In this document: one piece after another, positions 2,163-63,790 of the stretch
How the letters are laid out: each line of letters begins with the position of its first letter
Position numbering within the stretch: the stretch's first letter is position 1
Assembly: GCA_038087875.1 (NCBI GenBank)
Contig: CM075988.1
Location: 27,034,001 to 27,098,000, forward strand
Source of the DNA: Malacoraja senta
Lineage: Eukaryota
Direction: 5' to 3'
Length of the DNA stretch: 64,000 bases
Translations under genes and position numbers: made by a program
The notes under the pieces: model-generated
Databases searched by the model: none
What the model was told of the DNA's origin: nothing
What the model saw: the letters and a program-made list of their open reading frames with translations, nothing else

Positions 2163-3144
2163 TTCCATTTGCTTAAACTAACTTCTTCCAGTTCTGATGC
2201 ATGATAATTCCATTTGCAGACTTGTTGAATATTTTCAACATTTTCTCTTTCTTATTTCAACTTTACGGTATCTGTTAAGTCTGCCGTGAGGAAGCATGTT
2301 TAAGAAGGGAGTGCAGATTCCTCAGGATACATTCCATTAAAGTATATTTTGTAAAATTACAATAGATAAGCTAACCATTGAGAACTGCATTATTTATTAG
2401 AGCTGTTTATATTTTTCAATGCCTTTACTATCGCCTATGGCTAAACCCAATGACTGCTAATGCATAAATAACAGTTTTAAATTCCCAACTTGTAAAGCAA
2501 TGAATAATACATTGGGTATTGATGAACTGATAAGAGACCAACTGAGCATCGTTTTTCATCCCTAAAAGAGAACTACCTGGAATCCTAGTACAAAGAACAC
2601 ATGGCCTCAAAATTGGATCTATTAGCAGTCGCATTTTGAATACAAACCAAAGATAAAAGCACCTTAACGTAGCTTAATAATCATTTCTAGATGAAGTTGT
2701 ATTCATTATGAAATTGCAAATGGCTCTTCTATGAGCAACTCACATTAGCACATCTGGCATCTGTTATGTACGTACTGACATCACAAGGTGTACACCACTC
2801 ATTGCCACCATCCAGATTCAGGGTGTAATCTGTCACCTTGGTTGGGACAGTCTCCAAAGGATAAGAGCACATCTGCCTTAGATGGCCAACAAATCCTGCA
2901 CTAATGTACCTTCATTCTGATACAAATGCCTCATATGCTACATCTGCCATGAGACATTGCACATGTCATGACTGGTTGTTCCAGCACAGATAACAGCCGC
3001 GTCAGTGCAGATACCTTAGACGTTGCCATCTCTGGCCCACCCATTACCCCACACCTAAACGTAGTGATGACCCACTCACAATATGGGACTTAATGACCTA
3101 CAACAGTTTGGATTGCTGCCTCTGCACTCAGGAGTTCGAGGTGT

Positions 3145-5694
3145 CATTAGCTTGGAGGATGTGGAATCGGTATGGGTAGAGCTGCGAAACACTAAGGGGC
3201 AGAAAACGCTGGTGGGTGTTGTGTACAGGCCACCTAGCAGTAGTAGTGAAGTTGGGGATGGCATCAAACAGGAAATTAGAAATGCGTGCAACAAAGGCAA
3301 AACAGTTATAATGGGTGACTTCAATCTACATATAGATTGGGTGAATCAAATTGGCAGGGGTGCTGAGGAAGAGGATTTCATGGAATGTATGCGGGATAGT
3401 TATCTAAACCAACATGTAGAGGAACCAACGAGAGAGCATGCTTATCTAGACTGGGTATTGAGTAATGAGGAAGGGTTAGTTAGCAGTCTTGTTGTGCGTG
3501 CCCCCTTGGGCAAGAGTGACCATAATATGGTTGAGTTCTTCATTAGGATGGAGAGTGACATTGTTAATTCAGAAACAATGGTTCTGAACTTAAAGAAAGG
3601 TAACTTTGAGGGTATGAGACGTGAATTGGCCAAGATTGACTGGCAATTAGTTCTAAAAGGGTTGACGGTGGATATGCAATGGAAGGCATTTAAAGACTGC
3701 ATGGATGAACTACAAAAATTGTTCATCCCAGTTTGGCAAAAGAATAAATCAGGGAAGGTAGTGCATCCATGGATAACAAGGGAAATCAGGGATAGTATCA
3801 AAGCAAAACATGATGCATACAAATTAGCCAGAAAAAGCAGCATACCAGAGGACTGGGAGAAATTCAGAGACCAGCACAGGAGGACAAAGGGCTTAATTAG
3901 GAAAGGGAAAATAGATTATGAAAGAAAACTGGCTGGGAACATAAAAACTGACTGCAAACGTTTTTATAGATATGTGAAGAGAAAGAGATTAGTTAAAACA
4001 AATGTAGGTCCCTTGCAGTCAGAAACAGGTGAATTGATCATGGGGAACAAGGATATGGTGGACCAATTGAATAACTACTTTGGTTCCGTCTTCACTAAGG
4101 AAGACATAAATAATCTGCCGGAAATAGCAGGGGGCCGCGGGTCAAAGGAGATGGAGGAACTGAGTGAAATCCAGGTTAGTCGGAAAGTGGTGTTGGGTAA
4201 ATTGAATGGATTAAAGGCCGATAAATCACCAGGGCCAGATAGGCTGCATCCCAGAGTACTTAAGGAAGTAGCTCCAGAAATAGTGGATGCATTAGTGATA
4301 ATTTTTCAAAACTCTTTAGATTCTGGAGTAGTTCCTGAGGATTGGAGGGTAGCAAACGTAACCCCACTTTTTAAGAAGGGAGGGAGAGAGAAAATGGGGA
4401 ATTACAGACCAGTTAGTCTAACATCGGTAGTGGGGAAACTGCTAGAGTCAGTTATTAAAGATGGGATAGCAGCACATTTGGAAAGTGGTGAAATCATTGG
4501 ACAAAGTCAGCATGGATTTACGAAAGGTAAATCATGTCTGACGAATCTTATAGAATTTTTCGAGGATGTAACTAGTAGAGTGGATAGGGGAGAACCAGTG
4601 GATGTCTTGTATCTGGACTGGCAAACAGGAAGCAAAGAGTAGGAGTAAACGGGTCCTTTTCACAATGGCAGGCAGTGACTAGTGGGGTACCGCAAGGCTC
4701 AGTGCTGGGATCCCAGCTGTTTACAATTTATATTAATGAACTGGATGAGGGAATTGAAGGCAACATCTCCAAGTTTGCGGATGACACTAAGCTGGGGGGC
4801 AGTGTTAGCTGTGAGGAGGATGCTAGGAGACTGCAAGTTGACTTGGATAGGCAGGGTGAGTGGGCAAATGTTTGGCAGATGCAGTATAATGTGGATAAAT
4901 GTGAGGTTATCCACTTGGGTGGCAAAAACAGGAAAGCAGACTATTATCTAAATGGTGGCCGATTAGGAAAAGGGGAGATGCAGCGAGACCTAGGTGTCAT
5001 GGTACACCAGTCATTGAAAGTAGGCATGCAGGTGCAGCAGGCAGTGAAGAAAGCGAATGGTATGTTAGCTTTCATAGCAAAAGGATTTGAGTATAGGAGC
5101 AGGGAGGTTCTACTGCAGTTGTACAGGGTCTTGGTGAGACCACACCTGGAGTATTGCGTCTCAAATCTGAGGAAGGACATTATAGCCATAGAGGGAGTGC
5201 AGAGCAGGTTCACCAGACTGATTCCTGGGATGTCAGGACTTTCATATGAAGAAAGACTGGATAGACTCGGCTTATACTTGCTAGAATTTAGGAGATTGAG
5301 AGGGGATCTTATAGAAATGTACAAAATTCTTATGGGGTTGGACAGGCTAGATGCAGGAAGATTGTTCCCGATGTTGGGGAAGTCCAGGACAAGGGGTCAC
5401 AGTTTAAGGATAAGGGGGAAATCCTTTAAGACCGAGATGAGAAAAAACGTTTTCACACAGAGAGTGGTGAATCTCTGGAACTCTCTGCCACAGAGGGTAG
5501 TTGAGGCCAGTTCATTGGCTATATTTAAGAGGGAGTTAGATGTGGCCCTTGTGGCTAAAGGGATCAGGGGGTATGGAGAGAAGGCAGGTACGGGATACTG
5601 AGTTGGATGATCAGCCATGATCATATTGAATGGCGGTGCAGGCTCGAAGGGCCGAATGGCCTACTCCTGCACCTATTTTCTATGTATCTATGTA
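3145..5694 (+). mobile_element. CR1-clade LINE, 5'-truncated; ORF2 (partial APE endonuclease + RT) broken by an internal deletion
   Basis: ORFs 3083..4642 and 4675..5601 carry VYRPP, MGDFN, GKSDH, NYRPVSLTS, GVPQGSVLG and FADD. The 3' UTR hairpin is followed by a (tatctatg/tttctatg) tail. Confidence 0.97.
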
Positions 5695-6430: not shown

Positions 6431-7774
6431 CTACAACTGGCAAAACAAAAATGTTGGATTATAATGTAATTGTCCATGCACACTTGAATAAGTGTCATTG
6501 GTATTCTTCAATCTCCGTCTTTGGCTCCGGGTGTCTGAATATTATTGTGAGCACTGCAAATCTCAAGGTATTGTGAGGATAATTGCCAATCTCTGATCCT
6601 GCTCACACCCTCTTCCCTGTCTTCACCATTTACTTACTCAATGCATAACCTATATGTGGGTCACGTGCCTGGCTTGGATTCTGACAACATTACTAAGACG
6701 TTAATGAGCTCTTGTCAAAGCACTGAACTAGGTAGTTGGCAATCATGCCGTGATATGCTCCAAACATCTTGTCCACCTCCATGTGAATGCATTTTACTTA
6801 ATTAATGGAAATTATGAGGTTCATTGTTCTTGGGTTCAGGTTAGGATCAACAATTATGAGCAGGGATGCTTACTTGTTTGTAGTGGCAGATTTTTATATC
6901 GTTCAAGAGATTCCTCCCTCTCGCTACTAAGTGGACTACATGATTAAGGAGAATGTCTTTATACGCATGTGAGCTCTACGTCAGAGACCTTCAGAGCTTC
7001 TTCACGGATAAATCTTCATAACACCGTTTTTTGATTAATAGATTCTTTATTGTTGATGAAAAACAATAAGGTACATCCAAACTTCTTCCAACTCATACAT
7101 TATAATCTTCATCGAACTCCAGCTTATCGCTTTAAAGGTTAGAAAACTCCTCGTGCCTCCGTTACGCTCCGCATGGTCAAAGGGTAAACCTTCCCCATGC
7201 TGGTCCAAAACTAAACTAAAAACTAAACTTAGCTCCAAACACGCCCTAAAATACATCCTAAATACCACCATATAACGGGCAGTCTAAAATTTAAAGACAC
7301 ATGCCATAGTTAATGACACATAAAACAAGCCAAATGGCCACTACACTGTTAGCGATGTCTCAAACACAATTATGCCTCTTCACGGAGACTTGTAAAATGC
7401 TTCAGATATTAGATCTCTCCTCCTTAACTTTGAATGGTACTTGCACTGAGAAGAGAGCCATCTTAGGTAAAACCATTGATTGGGTGAATGTAACAGCATA
7501 ATATATTGTTGAGAACAGTAAGATATCAGCAATCTGAAGTGAGACATGCAATTTGTATGGATTATCAATGTAATTGACTTGAAATTTCTCAGTGTAACAC
7601 CTTTCAGGCTGCCTCCCCACGTTGTTATTTCCCATGCTGTTCTAATCTATTCAACTCCAATCCACAAGATTGATTCCAATCGAATTATGACTCTGACCCC
7701 TCCATTTCATTCACACTGAACCTCTGGAAGTTTACAGCAAAATTTGCAGCACAACAGTAGAACCTACAGCGGAA

Positions 7775-7992
7775 AGACACAAAGTGATGGAGTAACTCAG
7801 CAGGTCAGGCAACATCTCTGGAGAGCCGGGTCATTCCGGGTCGGGGCTCTTCCTCAAAATGAATGAAGATGGATCCTAAAGCGAAATGTCACCTATCCAT
7901 GTTCTCCAGGGATGCTGCCTGACCTGCTAGGTTACTACAGCATTTTGTGTCTTTCCTTGGTGAACCAACATCTGCAGTTCCTTGTCTCTACA
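7775..7992 (+). mobile_element. Palindromic non-autonomous element related to the Penelope 3' end (degraded)
   Basis: Inverted arms agacacaaagtgatggagtaactcagcaggtcaggc / gcctgacctgctaggttactacagcattttgtgtct, followed by a ccaacatctgcagttcctt tail. Confidence 0.8.
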
Positions 7993-8522
7993 GTAGATTC
8001 TACAGACCCTAGTGCCCCATACTAGATTTTAATATAATCCACTTTCCAGCTCTTGGTCATCTTGAGATGTTCATTAACTCCAGTGAGGTTTTCTTTCTCA
8101 CCACTCGCAGGCATTCCAAACCCTGCCACACTTAAATGAGATTTTTGTTTCTCCATTCCTCTGTAATACTTCCATCAATTCCCTTCTTACTGATCTCAGC
8201 TAAGAGATAAAGGGTCTTTCATTTATATTTAAACTCTCCCCATATCCCATATTCATGTGTTTGTCCAACAAACAACAACTGCAAGTATATCACAACACCT
8301 CCTACATCTGCAATCTTTAACATCGAGAGGACAGTGACAATAGGTGAATTAGGGGACCAATCTCTCCGAGCCCTACACCATCCCAGTTCAGAAAAAAATT
8401 GACCCTGCCTCAAATTCCTGAAACTTTGATGGGCTGGTATCACCACATGTACCATATCAGGCTGAAGTGACAAATCAACGTTACCTCGAAGAAGAGTAGG
8501 TCTATCACACAACACAAAGTAG

Positions 8523-8880
8523 GTCAAGTCAAGTCAAGTCAAGTCAAGTCACATTTATTTATATAGCACATTTAAAAAACAACTCTCGTTGGCCAAAGTG
8601 CTTTACATTTGTTATGAATAGTATAAACAAACAAACTACATACATATATACATGTAGCCCTCGCTCAGAGGACGTCAAGAAAGGCTTGGGAGTATAGATA
8701 AGTTTTTAGTCTTGACTTAAAGGAGTCGATGGAGGGGGCAGTTCTGATGGGAAAGGGGATGCTGTTCCACAGTCTAGGAGCTGCAACCGCAAAGGCGCGG
8801 TCGCCCCTGAGCTTATGCCTAGACGGCGGGATGTTCAGTAACCCCAAGTCGGCCGATTTGAGGGACCTGGAGGTGGAGTG
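8523..8880 (-). mobile_element. L2-clade LINE 3' fragment with (TTGAC)n tail
   Basis: ORF 8665..8922 encodes RGDRAFAVAAPRLWNSIP..IR....IDSFKSRLKTYL, typical of an L2 C-terminus. (gtcaa)5 lies at 8523-8551. Confidence 0.88.
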
Positions 8881-9114
8881 TAGACACAAACATCTGGAGT
8901 AATTCAGCGGGACAGGCAGCATCTATGGAGAGAAGGAATGTGTGACGTTTCGGGTCGAGACACTTTTTCAGACAGATCAAATGAGTCTGAAGAAGGGTCT
9001 CAACCCGAAACATTACCCATTCCTTCTCTCCAGAGATGCTGCCAGTCCCGCTGAGTTACGCCAACTTTTTGTGTCTATCTTCAGTTTAAACCAGCATCTG
9101 CGATTCCTTCCTAC
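8881..9114 (+). mobile_element. Palindromic non-autonomous element (inverted duplication of a Penelope-like hammerhead-bearing end)
   Basis: Arms ~8881-8971 and ~8983-9078 are reverse complements. The right arm plus tail resembles Penelope end 41581-41710. Confidence 0.88.
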
Positions 9115-9539
9115 AGAAAACAGTATGTGATTTTTTTGCAAAGCTAACATCTCACTTTAAGTTAATGCTGACATTATAAGTTAAATGGGCATCAAGAGAT
9201 GAAATGACATTGCACAGTAGTCACTTCAACAGGCATTTCCAAATGGATTGTCAGGTGTGAAGTTGGGAAAACAATGGATTCTACCTGTGAAACATGATCC
9301 CACTCCTTGTTAGGTCTCTAATTGATGACAGATGGGTCTTGAACAAAACACAACAGAGACGATCTCCAACATGCTGCCTGTGAAGCCGACATTGGCACAA
9401 AGTAGCTGTTGGATGTGAATGAGACACTGGGGCAGATGCCAGACATTTCCCCACGGAACTGTGGGGGGAAAGTCAACACAATTAATACAACTGCTTTTTT
9501 CCCCATGTAGATCACCACACTTGCTTCATGTATGGTGAA

Positions 9540-9690: not shown

Positions 9691-10654
9691 GACTTCTCTG
9701 CGAAGGATGAAAGGAAAATACATGCTCCTCTAAAACAAACTAGTTGAACTACATCCAATTCTCCCTCAGTTGGCTGAGTGACCTCTGGGTTGGACTGTGA
9801 TGCAGCTGTGACTTTGGGCACTGTATTGAAGTTGTAAGATGAATTTAAACTTCCAGGAAAGTTTAAGATACTTTCAACAATTGCAATCATTTACTTTATT
9901 GACATATACTTTCTTCCTCCTGTACAAAGAGAGAGGCATATTGATAAAAATATGGGGAAAATTAAAACTGATCTGGAGTTGCTTGTATCCTCAGTATGTA
10001 CAGAATCTGACCATTCCCTGTGGGACTGGATTAAACAGCACTTTGCCTTAACTTGTTTCTCATATTTTCTGGCAGCGGGTCCCGTTCTTTATAACCAATT
10101 AAATTGTTTTAAGGGTCACAATTCTGAACAATATTCCAGATTCAAGAGTTACTCCTGCATGATAAAATGAGCCTTGGTATGATTGGCTGCATTTTAAACA
10201 GGTGAAAGAAGATTGCTTGCATACAGCAAACAGCCCAATGGCTCCACATGTCATGTTAAACAATATTTGGACTGATACATGGATAGGAAAAGTTTACAAG
10301 GAAATTTGCTGAATTCAGACAAGTGAGCCTAGCTGAGATGAAGCGTTTTATCGACATGGACAAGTTTGGCCGAAGGTCTGGTGTCCATGCTGGATGACTC
10401 TGTCAGATCAGGCTAAGAAATGACCAGCAAACTGAGTTTCAAATCAACATCAGCAACATGATGGGAATTAAGTTCCTTGTCTGGGCTTTGAGGTTTGGGT
10501 CACAGGTTTGCAATTTCAGTGAGGTGATTAGCTATCAGCCATTACAGCTGGGAACAGAAGAGGTTCAGGGTCATAAGTGACTTGGAAAAAGGGGGAAACA
10601 TGAAAGCAATTGGAGGGCAGTGACAGAGAAGGCCATCAACGTGGATAACCAACA

Positions 10655-11466
10655 ATAAATGTGAGGTTATCCACTTTGGTGGCAAAAACAGGAAAGTAGA
10701 CTATTATCTGAATGGTGGCCAATTAGGAAAAGGGGAGATGCAACGAGACCTGGGTGTCATGGTACACCAGTCATTGAAAGTAGGCATGCAGGTACAGCAG
10801 GCAGTGAAGAAAGCAAATGGTATGTTAGCATTCATAGCAAAAGGATTTGAGTATAGGAGCAGGGAGGTTCTACTGCAGGTGTACAGGGTCTTGGTGAGAC
10901 CACACCTGGAGTATTGCGTACAGTTTTGGTCTCCTAATCTGAGGAAAGACATTCTTGCCATTGAGGGAGTACAGAGAAGGTTCACCAGACTGATTCCTGG
11001 GATGGCAGGACTTTCATATGAAGAAAGACTGGATAGACTCGGCTTGTACTCGCTAGAATTTAGAAGATTGAGGGGGGGATCTTATAGAAACTTACAAAAT
11101 TCTTAAGGGGTTGGACAGGCTAGATGCAGGAAGATTATTCCCGATGTTGGGGAAGTCCAGAACTAGGGGTCACAGTTTAAGGATAAGAGGGAAGTCTTTT
11201 AGGACCGAGATGAGAAAATCATTTTTCACACAGAGAGTGGTGAATCTGTGGAATTCTCTGCCACAGAAGGTAGTTGAGGCCAGTTCATTGGCTATATTTA
11301 AGAGGGAGTTAGATGTGGCCCTTGTGGCTAAAGGGATCAGGGGGTATGGAGAGAAGGCAGGGATGAGATACTGAGTTGGATGATCAGCCATGATCATATC
11401 GAATGGCGGTGCAGGCTCGAAGGGCCGAATGGCCTACTCCTGCACCTATTTTCTATGTTTCTATGT
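10655..11466 (+). mobile_element. Young CR1 LINE, 5'-truncated 3' portion
   Basis: Near-identical to 4895-5694; ORFs 10738..11106 and 11111..11374; (tttctatg) tail. Confidence 0.95.
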
Positions 11467-14821: not shown

Positions 14822-15021
14822 NNNNNNNNNNNNNNNNNNNNNNNNNNNNNNNNNNNNNNNNNNNNNNNNNNNNNNNNNNNNNNNNNNNNNNNNNNNNNNN
14901 NNNNNNNNNNNNNNNNNNNNNNNNNNNNNNNNNNNNNNNNNNNNNNNNNNNNNNNNNNNNNNNNNNNNNNNNNNNNNNNNNNNNNNNNNNNNNNNNNNNN
15001 NNNNNNNNNNNNNNNNNNNNN
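14822..15021. other. Assembly gap (200 N)
   Basis: Run of N. Confidence 1.
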
Positions 15022-15160
15022 GTTATCGTATTTACAGTTGTTTATATCCAGCTATTCGAAGTGAACAGGGTGGTATCTAATTTGGCTCAGTCCACTTGCT
15101 CGAATAACTCATTGGATCATTAGCTCATTGGTGTCGAGCTGAGAACAAAACACCACTCTT

Positions 15161-16787
15161 ACACTCTCCGTCATCTCCGCGCATTCCACTCTCTAGGCCC
15201 TCACCCCCTCATCTTCACCATGGACGTCCAGTCACTGTACACCTCCATCCCCCACCAGGATGGTCTCAAAGCCCTCCGTTTTTTCCTCGACCGTAGAAGC
15301 AATCTATACCCGGCCACTGACATCCTCCTCCGCCTAGCGGAGCTGGTACTTACACTTGATAACTTTTCATTTGACTCCTCCCATTTCCTCCAAATACAAG
15401 GCGTAGCTATGGGCACACGCATGGGCCCCAGCTACGCCTGCCTCTTTGTCGGGTACGTAGAACAATCCTTGTTCAATGCGTACCAGGGCCCCATCCCCGA
15501 CCTCTACCTCCGCTACATCGATGATTGTTTTGGTGCCACATCCTGCACCCACACACAACTGACTGACTTCATCCGCTTCACCACCAACTTCCATCCGGCA
15601 CTCAAATACACCTGGACCATTTCCGACACTTCCCTACCATTCCTTGACCTCACCATCTCCATCGCAGGTGATAGACTCCTTACCGACATCCACTACAAAC
15701 CTACCGACTCCCATGGCTATCTGGACTACACTTCTTCCCACCCTGCTTCCTGTAAGGACTCCATCCCCACTCCCAATTCCTCCGTCTACGCCGCATCTGC
15801 TCCCAGGATGAGGCGTTCCACACCAGGGCATCTGAAATGTCCTCATTCTTCAGGGAACGGGGGTTCCCCTCCTCCACCATAGATGAGGCTCGCACCAGGG
15901 TCTCTGCCATACCCCGCAACACTGCTCTCTCTCCCCATCCCCCCACTCACAACAAAGGCAGAGTCCCCCTAGTCCTCACCTTTCACCCCACCAGCCGTCA
16001 CATACAACAAGTGATCCTCCGTCAGTTTCGCCACCTCCAACGTGACCCCACCACTCGCCACATCTTCCCATCTCCCCCTATGTCTGCCTTCCGCAAAGAC
16101 CGCTCCCTCCGTAACTCCCTTGTCAATTCTTCCCTTCCCTCCCATACCACCCCCTCCCCTGGTACTTTCCCTTGCAACCGCAAGAGATGCAACACTTGTC
16201 CCTTCACTTCCCCCCTCCACTCCATTCAAGGACCCAAGCAGTCGTTCCAGGTGCGACAGAGGTTCACCTGCATCTCCTCCAACCTCATCTATTGCATTCG
16301 CTGCTCTAGATGCCAGCTGATCTACATCGGTGAGACCAAGCGGAGGCTTGGCGATCGTTTCGCCGAACACCTCCGGTCGGTCCGCAATAACCAACCTGAA
16401 CTCCCGGTGGCTCAGCACTTCAACTCCCCCTCCCATTCCGTATCTGACCTCTCTGTCCTGGGTCTCCTCCATGGCCACAGCGAGCAACACCGTAAATTGG
16501 AGGAAATGCACCTCATATTCCGCTTGGGCAGTCTACATCCTGGTGGCCTGAACGTTGAATTCTCCCAATTCTGCTAGCCCTTGCTGTCCCCTCCCCTTCA
16601 TCAGCCATCTGGTTGTCTCTTCCCCTCCCCCAGCCCTCGGGCTCCTCCTCCGCCTTTTCCTTTTTTCCTTTCTTCTCCCCACCCCCTATCAGTCTGAAGA
16701 AGGGTTTCGGCCCGAAACGTTACCTATTTCCTTCGCTCCATAGATGCTGCTGCACCCGCTGAGTTTCTCCAGCATTTTTGTGTACCT
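15161..16787 (+). mobile_element. Penelope-like retroelement copy 1 (5'-truncated; RT C-terminal half + GIY-YIG), 12-bp TSD
   Basis: ORFs 15220..15882 (GVAMGTRMGPSYA, YLRYIDD) and 15837..16577 (LIY...YIGET). A 1-bp deletion at ~15766 separates them. TSD accactcttaca at 15152-15163 and 16788-16799. Confidence 0.95.
16691..16724 (+). ncRNA. Minimal hammerhead ribozyme motif in the Penelope 3' end
   Basis: CUGAAGA-A-GGGU(UUCG)GCCC-GAAAC-GUU|AC. Confidence 0.7.
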
Positions 16788-17091
16788 ACCACTCTTACAT
16801 CTGTGGGGAAAGTCTTGAAAGGTTCACTCCCTAGTGTGATAAGGACACAGCAAGCAGGCAATTGGTTGTTTAACTAGAAGAGAGATGAGGAGAACTTGTG
16901 TTTTTTTGTCGTGCAATGAACAGCCAGCTAGTCCACAGGGTCAAGTATAGACCAGATTGAGTAAGAGAGACAGATTTACATTCTATGGGGTATTAGTGAG
17001 CTGGATGAGATTTTTAGAATAATCTGATCATTTAAGATCAATTTAATGTAGACACATTTCTGATTGTTTAATTAACTGATTTCAACTCATG

Positions 17092-17222
17092 TGTAAGAAA
17101 GAACTGCAGATACTGGTTTAAATCGAAGATAGACACAAAATGCTGGAGTAACTCAGCAGTACAGGCAGCATCTCTGGAGAGAAGGAATGAGTGACGTTTT
17201 GGGTCGAGACCCTTTTTCAGAC
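17092..17222 (-). mobile_element. Single-arm Penelope-end-like non-autonomous element
   Basis: Reverse complement of the gtctgaa.aagggtctcgaccc..aacgtcac...ccag.atctgcagttc unit. Confidence 0.8.
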
Positions 17223-17614
17223 ATGGTTTGAACTCATGTGTGCAGATTCATTAGCAAGAAGGCTATGCCCCACTGCCCACAGGAAGGCTGTAGAGGAGAC
17301 ACCCTGGAATCACCAGGGAGGTGGAACTTCAGTAAGGTGCAGAGATTCTGTAATGTCCTCTCAGAGACGTTTACTGCAAAGGATCTTTCAAATCCTAATA
17401 GGGTTTGGGAGATTAAATAAAGAAAAATGTTGCACTGACAGAGGATTGGTTACCAGACTTCACAGAATGGTTACAGCACAGGAGAAACCACGCGACCCAT
17501 CGAAACTTGCTGGCTTTGGCAAAAGAACCAGAGGTGTCGAGAATTTGTTTTTTATATGCAGCAAATTGTTATGATATGATACACGTGGTCTGAAAGAATG
17601 ATAAAACCAGGTTC

Positions 17615-31622: not shown

Positions 31623-33927
31623 TTAAAATGACTTTCCCTCCGTTATAATCGCGGCGCTTACTGATGACGTCATCAGCACCGCGACATGAAGCTCCGGTAA
31701 GTTTTTAAAAACGGTCCCGACCTCCAGACCCGATTTTAACGCGAAAAATCGCGATTTTTTCAGCGGAGCTAAAAAGTTTGCGACTGCTAGCAGAGCATGT
31801 CGCAACCGGAAGTCGCAGCTGCCGTCTTCACTTGTTTTGGAAACTCTGCTGACCCTGTGCACGCGCCTCATCAATGAGGGTGCTATCAAGCAGCCCTTTA
31901 CTAGGTGCTGCTGACCTGGCTTCTGGAGCCTGGTTCTGACATCACTCCTCCTGGAGTATGTCTTGTTGGAGCAACCTGTGTACAGGTTCTCCATTTGGAA
32001 TATCCACTCAAAAAGTGGTATCCAGCCTTGGAGGTGAATCCCAAACTGACTCTTGCTCCATGGACCTGACTTGCATGTTGCCTAGCGCCCAACTGACGCT
32101 GGCTCCGTTCTTTTTCTTAATACACAAGTCCACAGTCGCCCCGCTCCCAGCTGGCGACTGTTATAGGGGTATGAGGCAGTCCTTTACCAACCGCATTCCC
32201 GCGGCTCTCTGTCAGCTTTGCGGCTTCGCCTTGCGCCCGACTGGTGCTGACTGCATTCATTTCAGCCCCAAATCCACAGTCGCTACGCTCTCCGCTGGCG
32301 ACTGTACCGGGGTCAGAGGCGGCTGGTCGCCGACCGCAATCTCACGACTCTCTACCGGCTGTGCCGCTCGCCTCCTCCCCTTGCCCGTTTTTTTCCATGG
32401 TGCCTGTGGAAAAAATCCCCACAGACCCATAGCCAACGGACACGGAAATTACGAAAAAAGTTTTAACTTACCTTGTAGTTCACAACTACATTTCCACTAG
32501 AGGAGCTCTGCTCCTCACGTCCGTTTGCGCCAATGCGTCTGACGTAATGACGCGCAGGCGCACTGGCGGGGTTCTTCACGTAGTCACTCACGTGACTCCG
32601 AAGTAAAATTCAGGACGCTACCCAGATTGGCTAAAGATGCCAGATTTCATTTCCAGAAAAAAACAAATAGGTATTTTGTCATGTTAATCCAGTAATCCCA
32701 TTATCACTATGACTGACTGCATTTTATAATTTTTTTAGATGACTTGAATTAAAATACACCAGGTGTTTATGATGTGATTCAAACATATCTCAGGGTCAAT
32801 AGGACCAACTGATTGCTGACACCCTTAACCACTACACACATACCCTATTTAAGTAAAATCAGAACGGTACAGTGTGCAGTGTGACAGGTAAAAGCACACG
32901 TTAAAATTGGGCGGACATCGGGACGAGGGAAATAACCAAGCCATTAACTAGTTCAGCACAAAACCTGGTAGGGAGATGATTTATTTTGAAAAAAAATGAT
33001 TGCTTCAAATCCCAATGTATTAAAGTCAAACATGACTTTTGTTTCCATTTGAGTCTCTGGCAGCACTAACCAGTTTTAGAGCTTGCAAGAATCGAGAAAA
33101 CTGTTTTAGGTTAGATGGGCTTGATCCATTTTTGTAGATTCACAAAGAGATTAAAATGAAAATATTCTGTGAATGCCATAATCACATGGTAGACTGAAGT
33201 AATTGTATAGAAAAAAACACAAAATGTTTGCAGTGGCTAAATGGTAATGATATAGCACAGTACTAAAGAGCAATGAATAATCACAATCCACGTGGCACTT
33301 GGGCTTCTGAATTGACCAGTTTGGTTTCGATTATAAAAAGCATTTCACAGCCTTTCCTACCCCTTTCAAAAGCCATCTTACATCTTTAAGCCTTAATTAT
33401 GACTATTGATGGGATAAATAATTCTAATGCTAGATGAGAGAGCAAGAAGATTAAAGGTTTCTTTGTTCAGTTCCAGTGGTTTTCCTCAGTAATGTATTTG
33501 ACACTATTTTATGTGAGACATATGTCTGCCTTAATTCTCCAAATGTTAGAATGCTTATATTATCCAAAACCCAAGTTCATCATCGTTGTTTCTGAAACTT
33601 TATCCTGCTATATCCAGTGATTACACTTCAATGTGTTTCAATAGCTGTCAAATATTTTTAAATTCCCTGGTGAAAGACAGCTGCTGTTACCACAACTTAT
33701 AATTATGATAGACTTGAAAGATTGCTATCAAATAAAACCAAACATTTTCTTGATACGAGAACCATTCCATTATGCTGTACTGTAAAATTAGCCTTAATTC
33801 AGAGGAAAATCTGGGACATAAAGCAGTTTAATGGAACATAAAAATAAAAGAATTGATCATTCTGAAAATGTCCAGTAGCTCAGAGAAAGTCATTGATTTT
33901 GCTGGGCAGGTAATGCTGGCCAAAAAA

Positions 33928-34396
33928 AGACACAGAGTGCTGGAGTAACTCAGCGGGTCAGGCAGCATCTGTGGAGAACATGGATAGGTGACATTTCAAG
34001 TTGGGACCCTTTCTTCAGACTGATTGTGGTGGAGAGGGAGAGATGGATGAGAAAGCTGGAAGAGAGGAGGGCAGGATAAAGCCTGACCCGAAACGTCACC
34101 TATCCAAGTTCTCCAGAGATGCTGCCTGACCCGCTGAGTTACTCCAGCACTCTGTGAAACGTCACCTATCCATGTTCTCCACAGATGCTGCCTGACCCGC
34201 TGAGTTACTCCAGCACTCTGTGAAACGTCACCTATCCATGTTCTCCACAGGTGCTGCCTAAGCCGCTGAATTACTCCAGCACTCTGTGAAACGTCACCTA
34301 TCCATGCTCTCCAGATGTGCTGCCTGACCCGCTGAATTACTCCAGCATTTTGTGTCTTCTTCTGTAAACCAGCATCTGCAGTTCATAGTGTCTACA
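33928..34396 (+). mobile_element. Palindromic Penelope-end-like element with the right arm amplified as 4 x 66 bp
   Basis: Left arm 33928-34021; units begin gaaacgtcacc at 34090, 34156, 34222 and 34288; tail ccagcatctgcagttc. Confidence 0.88.
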
Positions 34397-35357
34397 TTCT
34401 AAGGCTTCATTTACCTGATTCAACTGTTGAAGTGACATTTAAAGTAGAATGTGGAACCTCAAGAGATGTCTTTCATCCAGATACCGAAAGCATTTGTTCC
34501 CTCAGGAGACCAGTAATTTGAGGTTCATGAAATTAAACACAGATTATTGTTCTGGTTAGAAAATTGATTGACAGATGCATAAGTTGTCAGGATATGAGGA
34601 ATGGTGTTCTATTATGAACTGTGCAGAGGTGTGTTTTTTAATTACTAGGATAATGAACAGAAAAGCCACAAATCTGAGAGTACGCAGGACATCATTGGAA
34701 GCATTACATGCAGCATAACCACAGCATTAAATTACAAAGGCAGAGTAATAGGTGTAATGAAGAAAGCTGTGGCAAATATATATTAGTGCAGACAAATGTA
34801 TAGTCATCCTCTTTGTCCATCCAGGATACCACCTAGAACAACTCTGAAAACTAGATCATTTTTCACTTTGAAAATGTTGCCCAAACCTGGTGACTCTTGC
34901 AGGCGGTCTCAGTAGACTCTCTCTACACACTTTGGACTGATTGGGGATTGCGTTTAGTCTGCCAATACTTTACTGAACTGTATGTGCCTAATGAATGTCA
35001 CGGTACGGCTGCACACGTGACAATAAAGAACTACCGAACCATTTTAAATGCTGCAATCTGGAGGCAGTGAAGCTGCAGAGAGACTAGCTGATGGGAAGGG
35101 ACATATATTCAATTATTAAGACTCAGTAGTCAGATAGAGAAAACAATTCAAAGACTAATAGAATGTTGGTCTTTGATCTGGAGGACTGGAGTACAAGGGG
35201 GCGGGGAGTAGACATGATGCCAAACTGGTTTGCAGGTGCACTGTGTGTAGTTCTGGTGACCCAACTTGCTATCCTTAGAAGATGTGTGGTTTATACTCAC
35301 TGGAACAGTTCTGCATGTCAGGGTGAATTTATAAGGAGAGATTAGACAAAATGCTGG

Positions 35358-35451
35358 ATAGATACAAAATGCTGGAGTGAATCAGCGGGTCAAGCAGTAT
35401 CTCTGGAGAGAAGGAATGGATGATGTTTCAGGTCGAGACTCTTCTTCAGAC
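35358..35451 (-). mobile_element. Single-arm Penelope-end-like element
   Basis: tagatacaaaatgctggagtgaatcagcggg...gtttcaggtcgagactcttcttcagac. Confidence 0.78.
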
Positions 35452-37644: not shown

Positions 37645-37763
37645 TGATGCAGATGCTGGTATACAAGAAAAGACACAAAGTGCTGGAGTAACTCAACAGG
37701 TCAGACAGCATCTCCGGAGAACATGGATAGGTGTCATTTCAGGTCATGGCCTTTCTTCAGACT
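37645..37763 (-). mobile_element. Single-arm Penelope-end-like element
   Basis: tgcagatgctgg...gacacaaagtgctggagtaactca...ttcttcagact. Confidence 0.75.
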
Positions 37764-38899
37764 GCACTCTGGGTCACTTTAGTGATATTGGTTAGGATGC
37801 AGAAGGAACAGCTGCTTGTGTGAATGCTGTATAACCTTCTACCATTTGCCCAAGTAAGTAGAAGGACCTAGGCTTGATGTGTGGAGGTGTTCCGTCATTG
37901 TATTCAACACAATGATAATGCAAGATGCTAGTTCCCAGCATGGACAATCTCCTCCCCAACCCCCACTCTCATCGTCACCTTTAGAAGTTACAGCAAAGAC
38001 TGTGCTCCAGTCCACCAGCTCACTGCCATCACAGTGATGTACTATCCACCCCAACACAACGAGACTGTCCCCACATCACACTGGTCCCCACATCTCCCTG
38101 CATCTCAGTGCAGCCGTTGCATTATTCCAGTTGCTCACTGCACTGACAGTGTATTCCTTTAATATTTAAATCCTCCATAACAATGGATGACATTTCCCAG
38201 CTCTGGCCTCTGCTGTTGGATTAAAATTTGTGCCCCTCAGCAAATAAAGTGCAACATTTATATTAAAACTGATCTTTCAGTGAACCTTAAAAACATAGCT
38301 GCCCTATTGAGTCCCCGGAATAAAAATGATGAACTCCCATTACATCTCATAACATTTACTACTCCACAGAGACAATGTTTGTGCTAGCTCAGAATTTTGA
38401 TAATTTCCCCGTGCAACTGAGTTATACAGGAGTTCAATAAAATGAACGTTTCATAAACATTAAATTACAAGAGTCATAAACAAGTTACAAGATCATTTAA
38501 TGCCTCAACCAGTCTAAATAATTGCTGCTTGTAAATCCCAGCACTATATCTTGCCGCCTCAGTGCTTTGGAGATAAGGTTATTATGTGATGGTTAAAAGC
38601 AGATCATTTCTGGATTCAAACTTAGAAAGGGAGAAGGCAGCTCCATTTGTCTTTCAGTTTAAACGCTGAGACTTACAAAGGATTATTGCAGCTAGCCCCA
38701 GGAATTAAAATGGTGAATTCTCTTACATCCCCTGCAAGCTTGTGTCTTTTATGGAAGTTAAACTCAAGGTCAGTGTACCCCTGACTTTAGTGGCTGGAGC
38801 TGGTCTGGTGCAGGATTGGTTAGGACTATCAGAATCACTATTCGTGGTCTGACCAGCCGACTGGGAAAATATGGATCACTTTCTCTACTTTAAGAAACA

Positions 38900-40530: not shown

Positions 40531-41710
40531 TCTCCATCGCAGGTGATAGACTCCTTACCGACATCCACTACAAAACATCCACTACAAACCTACCGACTCC
40601 CATGGCTATCTGGACTACACTTCTTCCCACCCTGCTTCCTGTAAGGACTCCATCCCCCACTCCCAATTCCTCCGTCTACGCCGCATCTGCTCCCAGGATG
40701 AGGCGTTCCACACCAGGGCATCTGAAATGTCCTCATTCTTCAGGGAACGGGGGTTCCCCTCCTCCACCATAGATGAGGCTCGCACCAGGGTCTCTGCCAT
40801 ACCCCGCAACACTGCTCTCTCTCCCCATCGCCCCACTCACAACAAAGGCAGAGTCCCCCTAGTCCTCACCTTTCACCCCACCAGCCGTCACATACAACAA
40901 GTGATCCTCCGTCAGTTCCGCCACCTCCAACGTGACCCCACCACTCGCCACATCTTCCCATCTCCCCCTATGTCTGCCTTCCGCAAAGACCGCTCCCTCC
41001 GTAACTCCCTTGTCAATTCTTCCCTTCCCTCCCATACCACCCCCTCCCCTGGTACTTTCCCTTGCAACCGCAAGAGATGCAACACTTGTCCCTTCACTTC
41101 CCCCCTCCACTCCATTCCAGGACCCAAGCAGTCGTTCCAGGTGCGACAGAGGTTCACCTGCATCTCCTCCAACCTCATCTATTGCATTCGCTGCTCTAGA
41201 TGCCAGCTGATCTACATCGGTGAGACCAAGCGGAGGCTTGGCGATCGTTTCGCCGAACACCTCCGGTCGGTCCGCAATAACCAACCTGAACTCCCGGTGG
41301 CTCAGCACTTCAACTCCCCCTCCCATTCCGTATCTGACCTCTCTGTCCTGGGTCTCCTCCATGGCCACAGCGAGCAACACCGTAAATTGGAGGAAATGCA
41401 CCTCATATTCCGCTTGGGCAGCCTACATCCTGGTGGCCTGAACGTTGAATTCTCCCAATTCTGCTAGCCCTGGCTGTCCCCTCCCCTTCATCAGCCATCT
41501 GGTTGTCTCCGCCCCTCCCCCAGCCCTCGGGCTCCTCCTCCTCCTTTTCCTTTTTTCCTTTCTTCTCCCCACCCCCTATCAGTCTGAAGAAGGGTTTCGG
41601 CCCGAAACGTTACCTATTTCCTTCGTTCCATAGATGCTGCTGCACCCGCTGAGTTTCTCCAGCATTTTTGTGTACCTTCGATTTTCCAGCATCTGCAGTT
41701 CCTTCTTTAA
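40531..41710 (+). mobile_element. Penelope-like copy 2 (5'-truncated), 17-bp TSD, longest 3' end
   Basis: ORF 40727..41467 is nearly identical to 15837..16577. TSD cactctcctttgtctcc at 40519-40535 and 41711-41727. Confidence 0.95.
41581..41614 (+). ncRNA. Minimal hammerhead ribozyme motif (Penelope copy 2)
   Basis: Identical to 16691-16724. Confidence 0.7.
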
Positions 41711-47724: not shown

Positions 47725-47915
47725 TGTAGAGACATAAGGAACTGCTGATGCTGGAATCTTGCATAGAATAAAATTGCTGGAGTAATTCAAAGTCAGATAG
47801 CATTTGTGGACTGACCCACAGTCTGAAGAAGGGTCTTAACGCAATACGTTGCCCATCCATGTCTTCCAGAGATGCTGTCCGACCTGCTGAGTTACTCCAG
47901 TACTTTGGGTTCTGT
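47725..47915. mobile_element. Degraded palindromic Penelope-end-like element
   Basis: ggaactgctgatgctgg...gctggagtaattca / agtctgaagaagggtct...gctgagttactccag. Confidence 0.72.
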
Positions 47916-48455: not shown

Positions 48456-51400
48456 GTCGGATGGGCCCGATGTCGGATGGGCCCGCACCGGACCCATCCG
48501 ACATCGCCGTCGAACTGGGCCCGCCGAACATCACAGCCGCACCCGGTCCTCCTAACATCGCCGCCGGACCGGGCCCATCCAGCATCGCCGCCGGACCGGA
48601 CCTACTCTACACGACCACCAGACCGGGGCTCCCCGAACATGGCCGCCGCACCGCACCCTACTCGAACCGCGCCGCCCCACCGACCATCCGCCTACCGGGA
48701 CCTCCCACGCATCGCCCGTGGACCCCGACTCTACTGCCCGAGGACCCCGACCATCGGGTCCGCCGACCCTCGCCATTGCACCTCCCTCCAGCCCCACCGG
48801 CCCTCGCCACTGCACCTCCCTCCCTCCAGCAGCCCGCAGCCGTCGCCTCACCTGCTGACAGACTGGTCTCTGTACTGGGCCTGAAGCCTCCACGCTGCTC
48901 ACTCCCACTCTCCTGGGTTTGACTCCACTGGGTCCTAGCGCTAGTCTTCCCAGCCCATGTTATCTCAGTGTTAGTTCCACTGATTCTTCCCCATCCCTCT
49001 CCAACTATGGGACCCCTTCTCTTCCACACCCACACTACAGCCCTCTCACCCCCCCCCCCCACCCCCTGACCACCCACCACCCCCCCACCACACATCGCCT
49101 CGTCCCCATTCCACCCACCTGCCTTCCTCCGGCCCCAACCTCCGTCCCTGCCGGGTGTTCACCATCCCCCCCGACCTCCCCCTCTCTGACATCGAACGGT
49201 CTGTCCTCAGCAGAGGTCTTACCTTTGTCCCCCTCCGTCCCCATCTCAATGAGTTCCGTGCCCTCCATGACTTGGAACGCTTCTACCGTCGCCTCCGCCT
49301 CACAGCTTACTTCCATGGGAAGGAGTCCTCGCTCCCCACTGATGACCCCTTTTCCCGTCTCCAACGCACCCCCTCCTCATGGAACCCCCCTCGTAGCCTT
49401 CCGGCTTTAGAACTCTTTATTCAAAACTGCCGCCGTGACATCAACCGCCTCAACTTCTCCACTCCCCTGTCTCACTCCAATCTCTCCCCCCCTGAACGCA
49501 CTGCCATCGACTCACTCCGCAACAACCTAGATTGGGTTATCAAACCCGCCGACAAGGGAGGTGCCGTGGTAGTCTGGCGCGTCGATCTCTACAAAGCTGA
49601 GGCCACGCGCCAACTCTCGGACACCTCCTCCTACTTACCCCTGGACCATGACCCCACTGACGAGCACCAGGCCACCATCTCCAGCACCATCACCGACTTC
49701 ATCCACTCCCACGCCCTGCCCGACCGAGCCTCCAACCTCATCGTTCCCCAGCCCCGCACAGCCCGCTTTTACCTTCTCCCCAAAATCCACAAACCTGACT
49801 GTCCCGGTAGACCCATTGTCTCTGCCTGTTCGTGCCCCACCGAACTCATCTCCACCTACCTCGACTCCATCATATCCCCCTTGGTTAAATCCCTCCCTAC
49901 CTATGTTCAAGACACCTCAGACACTCTCCGTCATCTCCGCGCATTCCACTCTCTAGGCCCTCACCCCCTCACCCCCTCATCTTCACCATGGACGTCCAGT
50001 CATTGTACACCTCCATCCCCCACCAGGATGGTCTCGAAGCCCTCCGTTTTTTCCTCGACCGTAGAAGCAATCTATACCCGGCCACTGACACCCTCCTCCG
50101 CCTAGCGGAGCTGGTCCTTACACTTAATAACTTTTCATTTGACTCCTCCCATTTCCTCCAAATACAAGGCGTAGCTATGGGCACACGCATGGGCCCCAGC
50201 TACGCCTGCCTCTTTGTCGGGTACGTAGAACAATCCTTGTTCAATACGTACCAGGGCCCCATCCCCGACCTCTACCTCCGCTACATCGATGACTGTTTTG
50301 GTGCCACATCCTGCACCTACACACAACTGACTGACTTCGTCCGCTTCACCACCAACTTCCATCCGGCACTCAAATACACCTGGACCATTTCCGACACTTC
50401 CCTACCATTCCTTGACCTCACTATCTCCATCGCAGGTGATAGACTCCTTACCGACATCCACTACAAACCTACCGACTCCCATGGCTATCTGGACTACACT
50501 TCTTCCCACCCTGCTTCCTGTAAGGACTCCATCCCCCACTCCCAATTCCTCCGTCTACGCCGCATCTGCTCCCAGGATGAGGCGTTCCACACCAGGGCAT
50601 CTGAAATGTCCTCATTCTTCAGGGAACGGGGGTTCCCCTCCTCCACCATAGATGAGGCTCGCACCAGGGTCTCTGCCATACCCCGCAACACTGCTCTCTC
50701 TCCCCATCCCCCCACTCGCAACAAGGGCAGAGTCTCCCTTGTCCTCACCTTTCACCCCACCAGCCGTCACATACAACAAGTGATCCTCCGTCAGTTTCGC
50801 CACCTCCAACGTGACCCCACCACTCGCCACATCTTCCCATCTCCCCCCATGTCTGCCTTCCAGAAAGACCGCTCCCTCCGTAACTCCCTTGTCAATTCTT
50901 CCCTTCCCTCCCATACCACCCCCTCCCCTGGTACTTTCCCTTGCAACCGCAAGAGATGCAACACTTGTCCCTTCACCTCCCCCCTCTACTCCATTCAGGG
51001 ACCCAAGCAGTCGTTCCAGGTGCGACAGAGGTTCACCTGCATCTCCTCCAACCTCATCTATTGCATCCGCTGCTCTAGATGCCAGCTGATCTACATCGGT
51101 GAGACCAAGCGGAGGCTTGGCGATCGTTTCGCCGAACACCTCCGGTCGGTCCGCAATAACCAACCTGACCTCCCGGTGGCTCAGCACTTCAACTCCCCCT
51201 CCCATTCCGTATCTGACCTCTCTGTCCTGGGTCTCCTCCATGGCCACAGCGAGCAACACCGTAAATTGGAGGAAATGCACCTCATATTCCGCTTGGGCAG
51301 TCTACATCCTGGGGGCTTGAACATTGAATTCTCCTAATTCTGCTAGCCCTTGCTGTCCCCTCCCCTTCATCAGCCATCTGGTTGTCTCCTCCCCTCCCCC

Positions 51401-51556
51401 AGCCCTCGGGCTCCTCCTCCGCCTTTTTCCTTTTTTCCTTTCTTCTCCCCACCCCCTATCAGTCTGAAGAAGGATTTCGGCCCGAAACGTTGCCTATTTC
51501 CTTCGCTCCATAGATGCTGCTGCACCCACTGAGTTTCTCCAGCATTTTTGTGTACC
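48456..51556 (+). mobile_element. Penelope-like copy 3, longest (Neptune-type, with a Cys-rich linker between RT and GIY-YIG)
   Basis: ORFs 49155..50105 (LSRGLTFVP, KPADKG, PKIHK..PGRPIVS) and 49988..51337 (YIDD, CNRKRCNTC, LIY..YIGET). An 8-bp duplication (ccccctca, ~49964-49979) causes the frameshift. No TSD found. Confidence 0.95.
51461..51494 (+). ncRNA. Hammerhead motif (Penelope copy 3), with one stem II mismatch
   Basis: CUGAAGA-A-GGAU(UUCG)GCCC-GAAAC-GUU|GC. Confidence 0.55.
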
Positions 51557-62994: not shown

Positions 62995-63790
62995 AGTCAT
63001 ACAGCATGGAAGCAAGCCCATCAGCCCAACTTGCCCACATCGACCAACATGTTCCAGCTACACTAATCCTACCTGCCTGTATTTGGCCCATATCCCTCTA
63101 AACCGTCCTATCCATGTACCTGTCTAAATGTTTCTTAAATGTTGTGATACTACCTGCATCAACTACCTCCTCTGGCAGAAGAAGGGGTTCGGCCCGAAAC
63201 GTTGCCTATCTCCTTCGCTCCATAGATGCTGCTGCACCCGCTGAGTTTCTCCAGCATTTTTGTGTACCTTCCTCCTCTGGCAGCTCGTTCCATTCACTCA
63301 CCAACCTTTGTGTTAAAAAGTTACCCCTCAGGTTCCTATTAAATCTTTCCCCTCTCACCTTAAACCTATATCCACTGGTTCTCGATTCCCCTACTCTGGG
63401 CAAGAGACTGTGCATTTACCTGATCTATTGTTCTCACGATTTTGTACACTTCTATACGATCACCTCTCATCCTCCTGCGTTCCAAGGAATAAAGTACTTG
63501 GTTGCTCCACTGCTCCCTAGAGCTCAGTAAATCTCTGCACCTTTCCAGCTTGACAATATCTTTCCTATGACATGGTGCTCAGAACTGAACACAATACCCT
63601 AAATGTGGTATCACTGATGTCGTATATAACTGCAACATGACCTCCCAACTTCTAGACTCAGTACTCTGACTGATGAAGGCCAATGTGCCGAAAGCCTTTT
63701 TGACCACCCTTTCTACCTGCGACACCACTTTCAAGGAACTATGAACCTGCACTCCTTGACCTCTGCTCTACAACCCTCCCCAGGAGTCCG
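62995..63790 (-). mobile_element. Older CR1 3' portion
   Basis: LPRVGESRTSGYRFKVRGERFNRNLRGNF..QR..EWNELPEE plus a CR1 3' UTR. Confidence 0.85.
63179..63270 (+). mobile_element. 92-bp Penelope 3'-end mini-insertion in a CR1, 13-bp TSD
   Basis: Nearly identical to 16697-16787; TSD cctcctctggcag at 63166-63178 and 63271-63283. Confidence 0.92.

What the first reader, a model, noticed from the sequence alone, without database searches (positions are those of the whole stretch)
8881..9114. Abundant palindromic non-autonomous elements built from an inverted duplication of a Penelope-type hammerhead end
Seen: at least 7 short elements (7775, 8881, 17092, 33928, 35358, 37645, 47725) share the sequence ending the coding Penelope copies (gtctgaagaaggg..cccgaaacgt..gatgctgc..cccgctgagtt..tccagcattttgtgt..ccagcatctgcagttcctt). 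Four have two inverted arms, placing a hammerhead motif on each strand within a ~90-bp hairpin; three are single arms. Inference: a SINE/MITE-like or retrozyme-like family mobilised by the Penelope RT, with autonomous partner and parasite in one window. They resemble MITEs but probably move through RNA. They may already be catalogued under a repeat name without this link.
Basis: partly seen in the sequence, partly recalled or inferred. Interest (0 to 1): 0.7.

Follow-up and report, generated by a model that had tools for sequence, protein, structure and literature searches.

The report
Fold-back stubs of Penelope-like retrotransposons
The short hairpin-shaped repeats are cut-down end pieces that Penelope-like jumping genes leave behind when they insert, a known by-product that is very abundant in this animal, rather than a new self-copying palindromic element.

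Summary
All are homologous to the 3' end (minimal hammerhead, pLTR, tail) of three coding Penelope-like (Neptune-type) copies in the window.

The palindrome is not a family copied as a unit. The four junctions differ. In public contigs the 8881 junction has about 3,200 summed depth against over 10 million in the arms, with more than 1,100 other joints. The ~35-nt tail is on one arm only in 4 of 4 two-armed loci, and target duplications are 12-17 bp (5 of 11 loci). This is the published Penelope insertion structure. Unrelated Penelope families from metagenome contigs show it too (19 of 101 loci).

No two-armed locus has an intact hammerhead core on both strands. Most short copies are 69-87% identical to the coding copies, so they belong to older sister families; the longest coding copy has a frameshift.

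One point stays open: 5' ends pile at the hammerhead's first bases, suggesting that reverse transcriptase runs off an RNA 5' end. A short non-coding donor RNA is not excluded (about 17%).

The parts
8881..8973 (-). Inverted, tail-less arm (pLTR stub, family A); starts two bases before the hammerhead core; core mutated (G8 lost)
8974..8984 (.). 11-nt junction between the arms, unique to this locus (its outer 3-4 bases on each side may belong to the arms)
   Evidence: summed depth about 3,200 at 8976-8978 against over 10 million in the arms, run X1
8985..9078 (+). Direct arm (pLTR stub, family A); minimal hammerhead core 8987-9014 with CUGAAGA and GAAA intact, the 15.2-16.2 pair broken
   Evidence: family majority letters G at 9012 and C at 9014
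9079..9115 (+). ~35-nt PLE tail, on this arm only
   Evidence: loose-end peak behind 9115 in all four runs
8524..8880 (-). 3' fragment of an L2-type LINE abutting the left arm; probably a later insertion; no target duplication recoverable for the 8881 element
   Evidence: translation (L2 label recalled from the motif, not from a database call); TSD test
7770..7989 (.). Two-armed stub, family B; tail on right arm; 16-bp target duplication with 2 mismatches at 7754-7769 and 7990-8005
   Evidence: (P=0.0013 against 2,986 random pairs)
17095..17226 (-). Single arm with tail, family A; 15-bp target duplication with 1 mismatch at 17080-17094 and 17227-17241
33925..34395 (.). Family B: inverted arm that runs about 70 nt further into the pyrimidine-rich PLE 3' UTR, facing four 66-bp direct units that lack CUGANGA; tail on the last unit
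35357..35451 (-). Single tail-less arm, family A
37648..37764 (-). Single arm with most of the tail, family B
47728..47911 (.). Two-armed stub, family B-like; tailed arm on the minus strand truncated downstream of the hammerhead; tail-less arm on the plus strand
63179..63270 (+).
15164..16787 (+). 5'-truncated coding PLE copy (family C), no tail; exact 12-bp target duplication at 15152-15163 and 16788-16799
40536..41710 (+). 5'-truncated coding PLE copy (family C) with tail; exact 17-bp target duplication
48470..51556 (+). Near full-length coding PLE copy (RT, CX4CxxC linker, GIY-YIG); frameshift near 49950-49975; no upstream pLTR, no tail; 5' limit approximate

Best explanation
These are severely 5'-truncated insertions of Neptune-type Penelope-like elements (PLEs), from at least three subfamilies of different age.

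Shown here: (1) each arm is the PLE 3' end; (2) arms end at one of two 3' positions about 35 nt apart; (3) two-armed loci are head-to-head with the tail on one arm only; (4) junctions differ from locus to locus; (5) target duplications are 12-17 bp; (6) 5' ends pile at the first bases of the hammerhead.

Inferred: the PLE protein nicks both strands of the target about 12-17 bp apart and primes reverse transcription from each nick, at the two internal start sites. This was shown in vitro for a lizard Poseidon-clade element, not for this one. Each cDNA stops early, often at what is probably the RNA's 5' end, and the two cDNA ends are joined, giving a palindrome made anew at each insertion. If only one strand is extended, a single arm results. 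The great excess of ~100-130-nt stubs would follow if initiation usually occurs in the pLTR nearest the RNA's 5' end. The resulting hairpin is dead: the hammerhead is locked in a long double helix, and the second copy lies on the other strand, so it cannot act as the dimer partner.
For: Homology and anatomy. RT plus GIY-YIG ORF with 160 relatives among 5,526 candidates, and a CX2-5CxxC motif in 40 of 40 top relatives. Tail on one arm in 4 of 4 two-armed loci. Target duplications in 5 of 11 loci (12, 13, 15, 16, 17 bp). Four different junctions (arm starts at ruler +5/+5, +2/+2, about -70/+19, +46/+2). Public contigs: junction depth about 3,200, 6,200 and 7,200 in runs X1, X3, X11 against 10-40 million in the arms; 15 joints shown plus 1,106 not shown, none shown in more than 14 contigs of a run. 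Same architecture in unrelated PLE families: 19 of 101 loci head-to-head, gaps 3-452 bp, different gaps within one family; tail on one arm in 6 of the 6 loci (of 19) where both arms could be measured; duplications of 12-14 bp in 5 of 19. Literature: PMC8557442 and PMC3846280 (passages); PMC11167929 (parts 1-2 of 4); PMC4209133 (parts 1-2 of 4).
Against: No coding partner of families A or B is in the window (tblastn finds only family C), and no genome was available, so their descent from ORF-bearing RNA is not shown. The sharp 5' boundary fits a separate short donor RNA equally well. No target duplication was found at 6 of 11 loci, including 8881 and three of the four two-armed loci. One search is contig-based: depth is not copy number, some joints were not counted, and several boundaries (8894, 9015, 9067, 9101) coincide with mismatches of the reference. 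Two-strand priming is borrowed from a different PLE clade, and PMC3846280 prefers self-priming on an antisense template.
Confidence: 0.75

Rival explanations
1. A short non-coding RNA of about 130 nt, from the first bases of the hammerhead to the tail, is transcribed from solo pLTR copies and mobilised in trans by PLE protein: a SINE-like partner. The mobile unit is the single arm; palindromes still arise at insertion.
For: 9 of 13 arms anchored start within about 6 nt of the same position. In one search a large class of loose ends at 8985 has a random AT-rich consensus (628, 941 and 875 records in X1, X3, X11), comparable to the tail-end class (979, 1,379, 1,194). The boundary sits in a TCAGTC initiator-like motif (consensus recalled). 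D. virilis Penelope has an internal TATA-less promoter (PMC2377424, passages). Families A and B have no coding copy in the window. pLTR-derived non-autonomous elements are proposed in 10.64898/2026.07.22.740005 (parts 1-3 of 5) and for Chlamys in PMC8557442 (passage).
Against: The largest loose-end class (before 8984; 1,079, 1,686 and 1,535 records) continues into pyrimidine-rich PLE 3' UTR, though family C copies may contribute. The 33928 arm also continues about 70 nt. The young coding family itself made a 92-bp stub with a 13-bp duplication (63179). In eight unrelated families only 23 of 69 uncensored 5' ends lie within 25 nt of the core; the rest spread to 450 nt.
Confidence: 0.17
2. One reading: a palindromic ~230-bp element, built once by inverted duplication, is copied as a unit by the Penelope RT.
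For: 4 of 8 short loci are two-armed. A few contigs in other runs span a near-symmetric junction like 8881's, one at depth 125 against about 20-30 for neighbouring records (table 8).
Against: The four junctions differ and come from at least two subfamilies. Junction depth is about 1/10,000 of peak arm depth, and the spanning contigs differ by 1-8 gaps. The tail is on the right arm in three loci and on the left in one, and the truncated arm is not the same in each.
Confidence: 0.04
3. Non-LTR retrozyme: tandem hammerhead units cut out a monomer that circularises and is reverse-transcribed.
For: A minimal hammerhead core is present in the family consensus. One locus has four head-to-tail 66-bp units. 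Retrozymes were reported in one chondrichthyan genome (10.64898/2026.07.22.740005).
Against: The tandem units lack CUGANGA. No arm starts at the predicted cut site (ruler about +32). Helix I is only 2 bp in the window's copies (by inspection). Opposite-strand motifs cannot form a cis dimer. No go-back joint from the tail to the 5' end is among the 15 joints shown of 1,121.
Confidence: 0.03
4. MITE: the inverted arms serve as terminal inverted repeats for a DNA transposase.
For: Long inverted arms around a short spacer.
Against: Ends are asymmetric (one-sided tail), half the loci have one arm, and duplications are 12-17 bp and variable.
Confidence: 0.01

Closest known systems
Insertion structure of endonuclease-positive Penelope-like elements (Penelope/Poseidon, Neptune, Nematis, Naiad): inverted 5'-truncated copy plus 30-40-bp tail at one end (Craig et al. 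2021, PMC8557442; Arkhipova et al. 2013, PMC3846280; passages read)
   Same: Head-to-head inverted arms, one-sided tail, variable target duplication, solo pLTRs, partial tandems.
   Different: Here both arms are cut down to about 100 nt with no ORF between them, duplications are longer (12-17 bp against 8-10 bp in A. vaga), and such ends occur at 11 loci in 64 kb.
Minimal hammerheads of metazoan PLEs (Cervera and de la Pena 2014, PMC4209133; parts 1-2 of 4 read)
   Same: CUGANGA, extra base before helix II, G10.1-C11.1 pair, GAAA-CG-UH with no helix III; mostly solo motifs; pairs on opposite strands already noted.
   Different: Motifs here are as close as about 15 nt, against about 100-700 bp in that paper; helix I is only 2 bp; most window copies are decayed.
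PAc (Poseidon of Anolis carolinensis) in vitro mechanism (Frangieh et al. 2024, PMC11167929; parts 1-2 of 4 read)
   Same: Two internal RT start sites bracketing the tail, and extension of both target strands, would give exactly the observed two 3' ends and two arms.
   Different: Different PLE clade; that paper does not, in the parts read, reconstitute head-to-head products.
Animal non-LTR retrozymes (Li, Clavereau and Pollet 2026, 10.64898/2026.07.22.740005; parts 1-3 of 5 read)
   Same: Non-coding, pLTR-derived, hammerhead-bearing, dependent on PLE protein.
   Different: Retrozymes are head-to-tail tandems with a complete hammerhead in at least two consecutive units; these loci are solo or head-to-head, and the only tandem lacks the core.
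MITEs
   Same: Short, non-coding, hairpin-forming, very abundant.
   Different: Asymmetric ends, long variable duplications, no shared internal sequence.

Membership tests
EN+ Penelope-like element (truncated insertion) | Sequence continuous with the 3' end of an RT + GIY-YIG ORF | tested here: met
   Met directly for family C (Pfam RVT_1 and GIY-YIG hits are weak, below gathering score; 160 relatives, many with both domains). Families A and B by 67-87% homology only.
EN+ Penelope-like element (truncated insertion) | Optional 30-40-nt tail at one end only | tested here: met
   4 of 4 two-armed loci; 1 of 3 coding copies has the tail
EN+ Penelope-like element (truncated insertion) | Inverted 5'-truncated copy at the 5' end, variable junction | tested here: met
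EN+ Penelope-like element (truncated insertion) | Variable target-site duplication | tested here: met
   5 of 11 loci, 12-17 bp; none found at the other 6
EN+ Penelope-like element (truncated insertion) | Minimal type I hammerhead in the pLTR | tested here: met
   Core motif at 5 arms by pattern scan; helix I only 2 bp; no Rfam hammerhead hit; cleavage not tested
Neptune/Nematis clades | CX2-5CxxC motif between RT and GIY-YIG | tested here: met
   Present in the window ORF and in 40 of 40 top relatives; motif definition from PMC8557442
Neptune/Nematis clades | Placement in an RT tree with named reference elements | not testable with these tools
   No named PLE references among the hits
Non-LTR retrozyme | Two or more consecutive head-to-tail units, each with a complete hammerhead | tested here: not met
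   The four 66-bp units lack CUGANGA
Non-LTR retrozyme | Circular or unit-length RNA | not testable with these tools
   All runs laid were contigs; the one RNA-guessed run was judged probably DNA
Non-autonomous family copied as a palindrome | Shared junction and spacer among copies | tested here: not met
   0 of 4 junctions shared; junction depth about 1/10,000 of peak arm depth
SINE-like solo pLTR | Defined 5' end | tested here: met
   9 of 13 arms; loose-end class at 8985
SINE-like solo pLTR | Own lineage, separate from ORF-linked copies | not testable with these tools
   No genome held
SINE-like solo pLTR | tRNA-derived head | tested here: not met
   0 tRNA genes in the window; no such Rfam match
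MITE | Symmetric terminal inverted repeats with a fixed short duplication | tested here: not met

The most novel reading that the evidence does not exclude
In this vertebrate lineage a capped ~130-nt non-coding RNA, starting at an initiator that overlaps the first bases of the hammerhead and ending at the tail, has become a true SINE-like parasite of Neptune-type PLEs, reaching very high copy number. The hammerhead sequence would double as the core promoter, and two-strand priming would turn a large share of its insertions into perfect hairpins, a genome-wide source of double-stranded RNA.
Probability: 0.15. Interest if true: 0.5.

Novelty: already known. Interest (0 to 1): 0.17.

Why it matters
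The structure is known, so the finding is mostly ordinary. Its residual value is as material. With 137,000-183,000 contigs per DNA run matching a 300-bp stretch, these genomes hold a very large sample of PLE insertion junctions. That sample could test in vivo the two-site, two-strand priming seen in vitro, and whether the RNA's 5' end lies at the hammerhead. Repeat annotators should file such hairpins as PLE stubs rather than MITEs or miRNA precursors (a weak mir-577 match at E=0.36 falls on this hairpin).

Tried and rejected
Whole-genome analysis: no genome is held, so no genome-wide consensus, junction table or duplication census was possible.

Rfam at E<=1: four weak matches, none a hammerhead; the mir-577 match is a by-product of the hairpin.

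Metagenome scan with a family-specific motif: 0 hits. These share nothing with the window's arms beyond the motif, so they are used only as an architectural comparison; 6 duplicates were dropped (117 left), and 16 more with under 150 bp upstream were left out of the 19-of-101 count.

RNA: no RNA holder listed; this is not evidence on expression.

Joints that land at 9015-9019, the predicted cut site, were rejected as evidence of ribozyme cleavage, because the reference differs from the family majority at 9012 and 9014 and one such joint carries a hammerhead-like sequence between its sides.

Splice-acceptor idea (pyrimidine tract plus CAG before the core, as in D. virilis): considered, but it would not create a free 5' end and no donor exon was found by inspection; untested.

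Target duplication for 8881, with and without the L2 fragment: none above chance.

Literature searches for a named chondrichthyan family or a palindromic PLE-derived family found none; I saw only listings for most hits. Dfam and Repbase could not be searched; the name Penelope1_Vert is recalled, and one search found no paper with it. No supplementary files were read; those of the 2026 preprint, which list retrozyme families of one chondrichthyan, could bear on whether this family is catalogued.

Earlier scan notes by sequence, by first word set and by place: none.

Full report
Context. The window is animal DNA rich in LINE-like and PLE ORFs, with one 200-base gap at 14822-15021. No whole genome is held. 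That the host is a vertebrate, probably a cartilaginous fish, is my impression from recall of such repeat landscapes and comes from no call.

Observation. A blastn of 8860-9130 against the window finds all seven listed loci, an eighth at 63171-63265, and the 3' ends of three coding copies at 16688-16783, 41578-41705 and 51458-51553. An HMM from 13 arms finds the same set at E<=5e-12, two faint extra pieces, and nothing better than E=3.2 in the reversed window. The 8881 element is an inverted arm (8881-8973), an 11-nt junction, a direct arm (8985-9078) and a tail (to 9115). It folds into a ~93-bp hairpin (-137 kcal/mol, z=-18.6). Its left edge abuts a LINE 3' fragment (8524-8880, minus strand), and no target duplication is recoverable.

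The coding element. The ORF pieces carry weak RVT_1 and GIY-YIG hits. A search of longer proteins gave 160 relatives among 5,526 candidates, up to 53% identical, many with both domains. The window ORF and 40 of 40 top relatives have a CX2-5CxxC motif, which PMC8557442 (passages) ties to the Neptune and Nematis clades. I call it Neptune-type without a tree. Two copies are 5'-truncated, with 12-bp and 17-bp duplications. The third is near full length but has a frameshift near 49950-49975 and no upstream pLTR. None of the three looks like an active donor.

Subfamilies. Over the shared core the coding copies and 63171 are 95-99% identical (family C). 8881, 17092 and 35358 form family A (82-89% among themselves, 78-87% to C). 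7772, 33928, 37645 and probably 47725 form family B (67-80% to C). The seven listed loci are therefore older relatives, not parasites of the copies beside them.

Hammerhead. The family majority carries CUGAAGA, an extra base, a short helix II, GAAA-CG-UC, which matches the minimal hammerhead of PMC4209133 (parts 1-2 of 4). The pattern scan finds a usable core at 5 arms plus one unrelated site. None of the four two-armed loci has both boxes on both arms. Helix I is 2 bp by inspection. In a transcript through the palindrome the motif would be buried in the long stem, and the second copy is on the other strand, so the cis dimer these motifs need cannot form (inference).

Is the palindrome a family? 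No. Arm starts on a common ruler are +5/+5 (7772), +2/+2 (8881), about -70/+19 (33928) and +46/+2 (47725), and the junction sequences are unrelated. Contigs of four public runs were laid on 8870-9170 at 80% likeness: 137,443, 183,329, 176,259 and 15,689 records. In X1 the summed depth peaks at 34 million in the right arm, is about 3,200 at 8976-8978, and 25.9 in the unique flank. The joint table shows 15 of 1,121 joints, none shown in more than 14 contigs of a run. The few contigs that span a near-symmetric junction differ by 1-8 gaps. Limits: contig depth is not copy number, some joints were not counted, and boundaries at 8894, 9015, 9067 and 9101 coincide with reference mismatches.

Ends. 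The 3' ends fall at ruler 90-99 or 119-132, and exactly one arm has the tail in 4 of 4 two-armed loci. Duplications above chance occur at 7772 (16 bp, P=0.0013), 17092 (15), 63171 (13) and the coding copies (17 and 12), and not at the other six loci. This is the structure drawn for EN+ PLEs: an inverted 5'-truncated copy beside the pLTR and a 30-40-bp tail at one end (PMC8557442; PMC3846280; PMC8969392; passages only).

Outside comparison. A generic hammerhead motif gave 123 metagenome loci, 117 after removing duplicates. They share no sequence with the window's arms 3' of the motif. Of 101 with at least 150 bp upstream, 19 have a head-to-head arm, with gaps of 3-452 bp that differ within a family. 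Most of the eight largest families have two 3'-end classes about 50 nt apart. The tail is on one arm in the 6 loci where both arms could be measured, and 5 of 19 have 12-14-bp duplications. The architecture is thus a general product of PLE insertion.

Mechanism. The anole PLE protein cuts and extends both target strands and starts reverse transcription at two internal sites that bracket the tail, near the start of the ORF; ribozyme cleavage is not needed for insertion in vitro (PMC11167929, parts 1-2 of 4). Applied here (inference): priming from both nicks gives two cDNAs pointing at each other, one with and one without the tail, joined wherever they stop. PMC3846280 proposes self-priming on an antisense template instead; my data do not separate the two.

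The open point. Nine of 13 anchored arms start within about 6 nt of the hammerhead's first bases, with unrelated sequence upstream (pyrimidine share 0.49-0.62, against 0.95 in coding copies and 0.78 in the long 33928 arm). One search has a large loose-end class at 8985 with a random consensus, beside a larger class at 8984 that continues into pyrimidine-rich UTR. A stop at the far side of a structure suggests the end of the template. The site lies in an initiator-like motif (consensus recalled), and D. virilis Penelope has an internal promoter (PMC2377424, passages). The template could be the 5' end of the normal PLE mRNA (favoured) or a separate short RNA (rival, 0.17). In the unrelated families only 23 of 69 uncensored 5' ends are within 25 nt of the core, so the pile-up is stronger here. 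I noted this idea before seeing an earlier scan note with the same idea; such notes are leads, not support.

Verdict. The kind is already known; whether these subfamilies are catalogued in Dfam or Repbase could not be checked. Interest 0.17.

Noticed in passing
window 34084-34395: The four 66-bp units show a mosaic of variants: units 1-3 share one variant with the inverted arm, and unit 3 shares another with unit 4. This suggests later slippage or conversion, or repeated template jumps.
   Followed up: partly
window 63670-63700 (+): A separate minimal-hammerhead-like motif with a 3-bp helix II and no similarity to the PLE arms; may be chance or another family.
   Followed up: no
window 47108-47147 (+) and 56643-56698 (-): Two faint, much older pieces of the same PLE end (HMM E=0.004 and 0.001).
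   Followed up: partly
window 25616-31622 (-): Near full-length L1/Tx1-like LINE: a 331-aa ORF1-like frame, and endonuclease and RT frames split near 28900 (family label recalled). A related 3' fragment lies at 46307-47053.
   Followed up: no
window 3071-5601, 10624-11106, 17665-18561, 36958-37593: Several CR1-like LINE pieces (label recalled).
   Followed up: no
window 53257-53290 (-): Weak partial Rfam match to the CPEB3 (HDV-like) ribozyme, E=0.06, below gathering score.
   Followed up: no
window 16655-16692, 41545-41582, 51425-51462: A long pyrimidine tract plus CAG directly before the hammerhead core resembles a splice acceptor, as in D. virilis Penelope, where splicing changes helix I (PMC4209133).
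   Followed up: no
L087: A direct head-to-tail repeat of about 69 bp beside a hammerhead core; a retrozyme-like candidate in another organism.
   Followed up: no
window 14822-15021: 200-base assembly gap beside a long purine-rich simple repeat.
   Followed up: no
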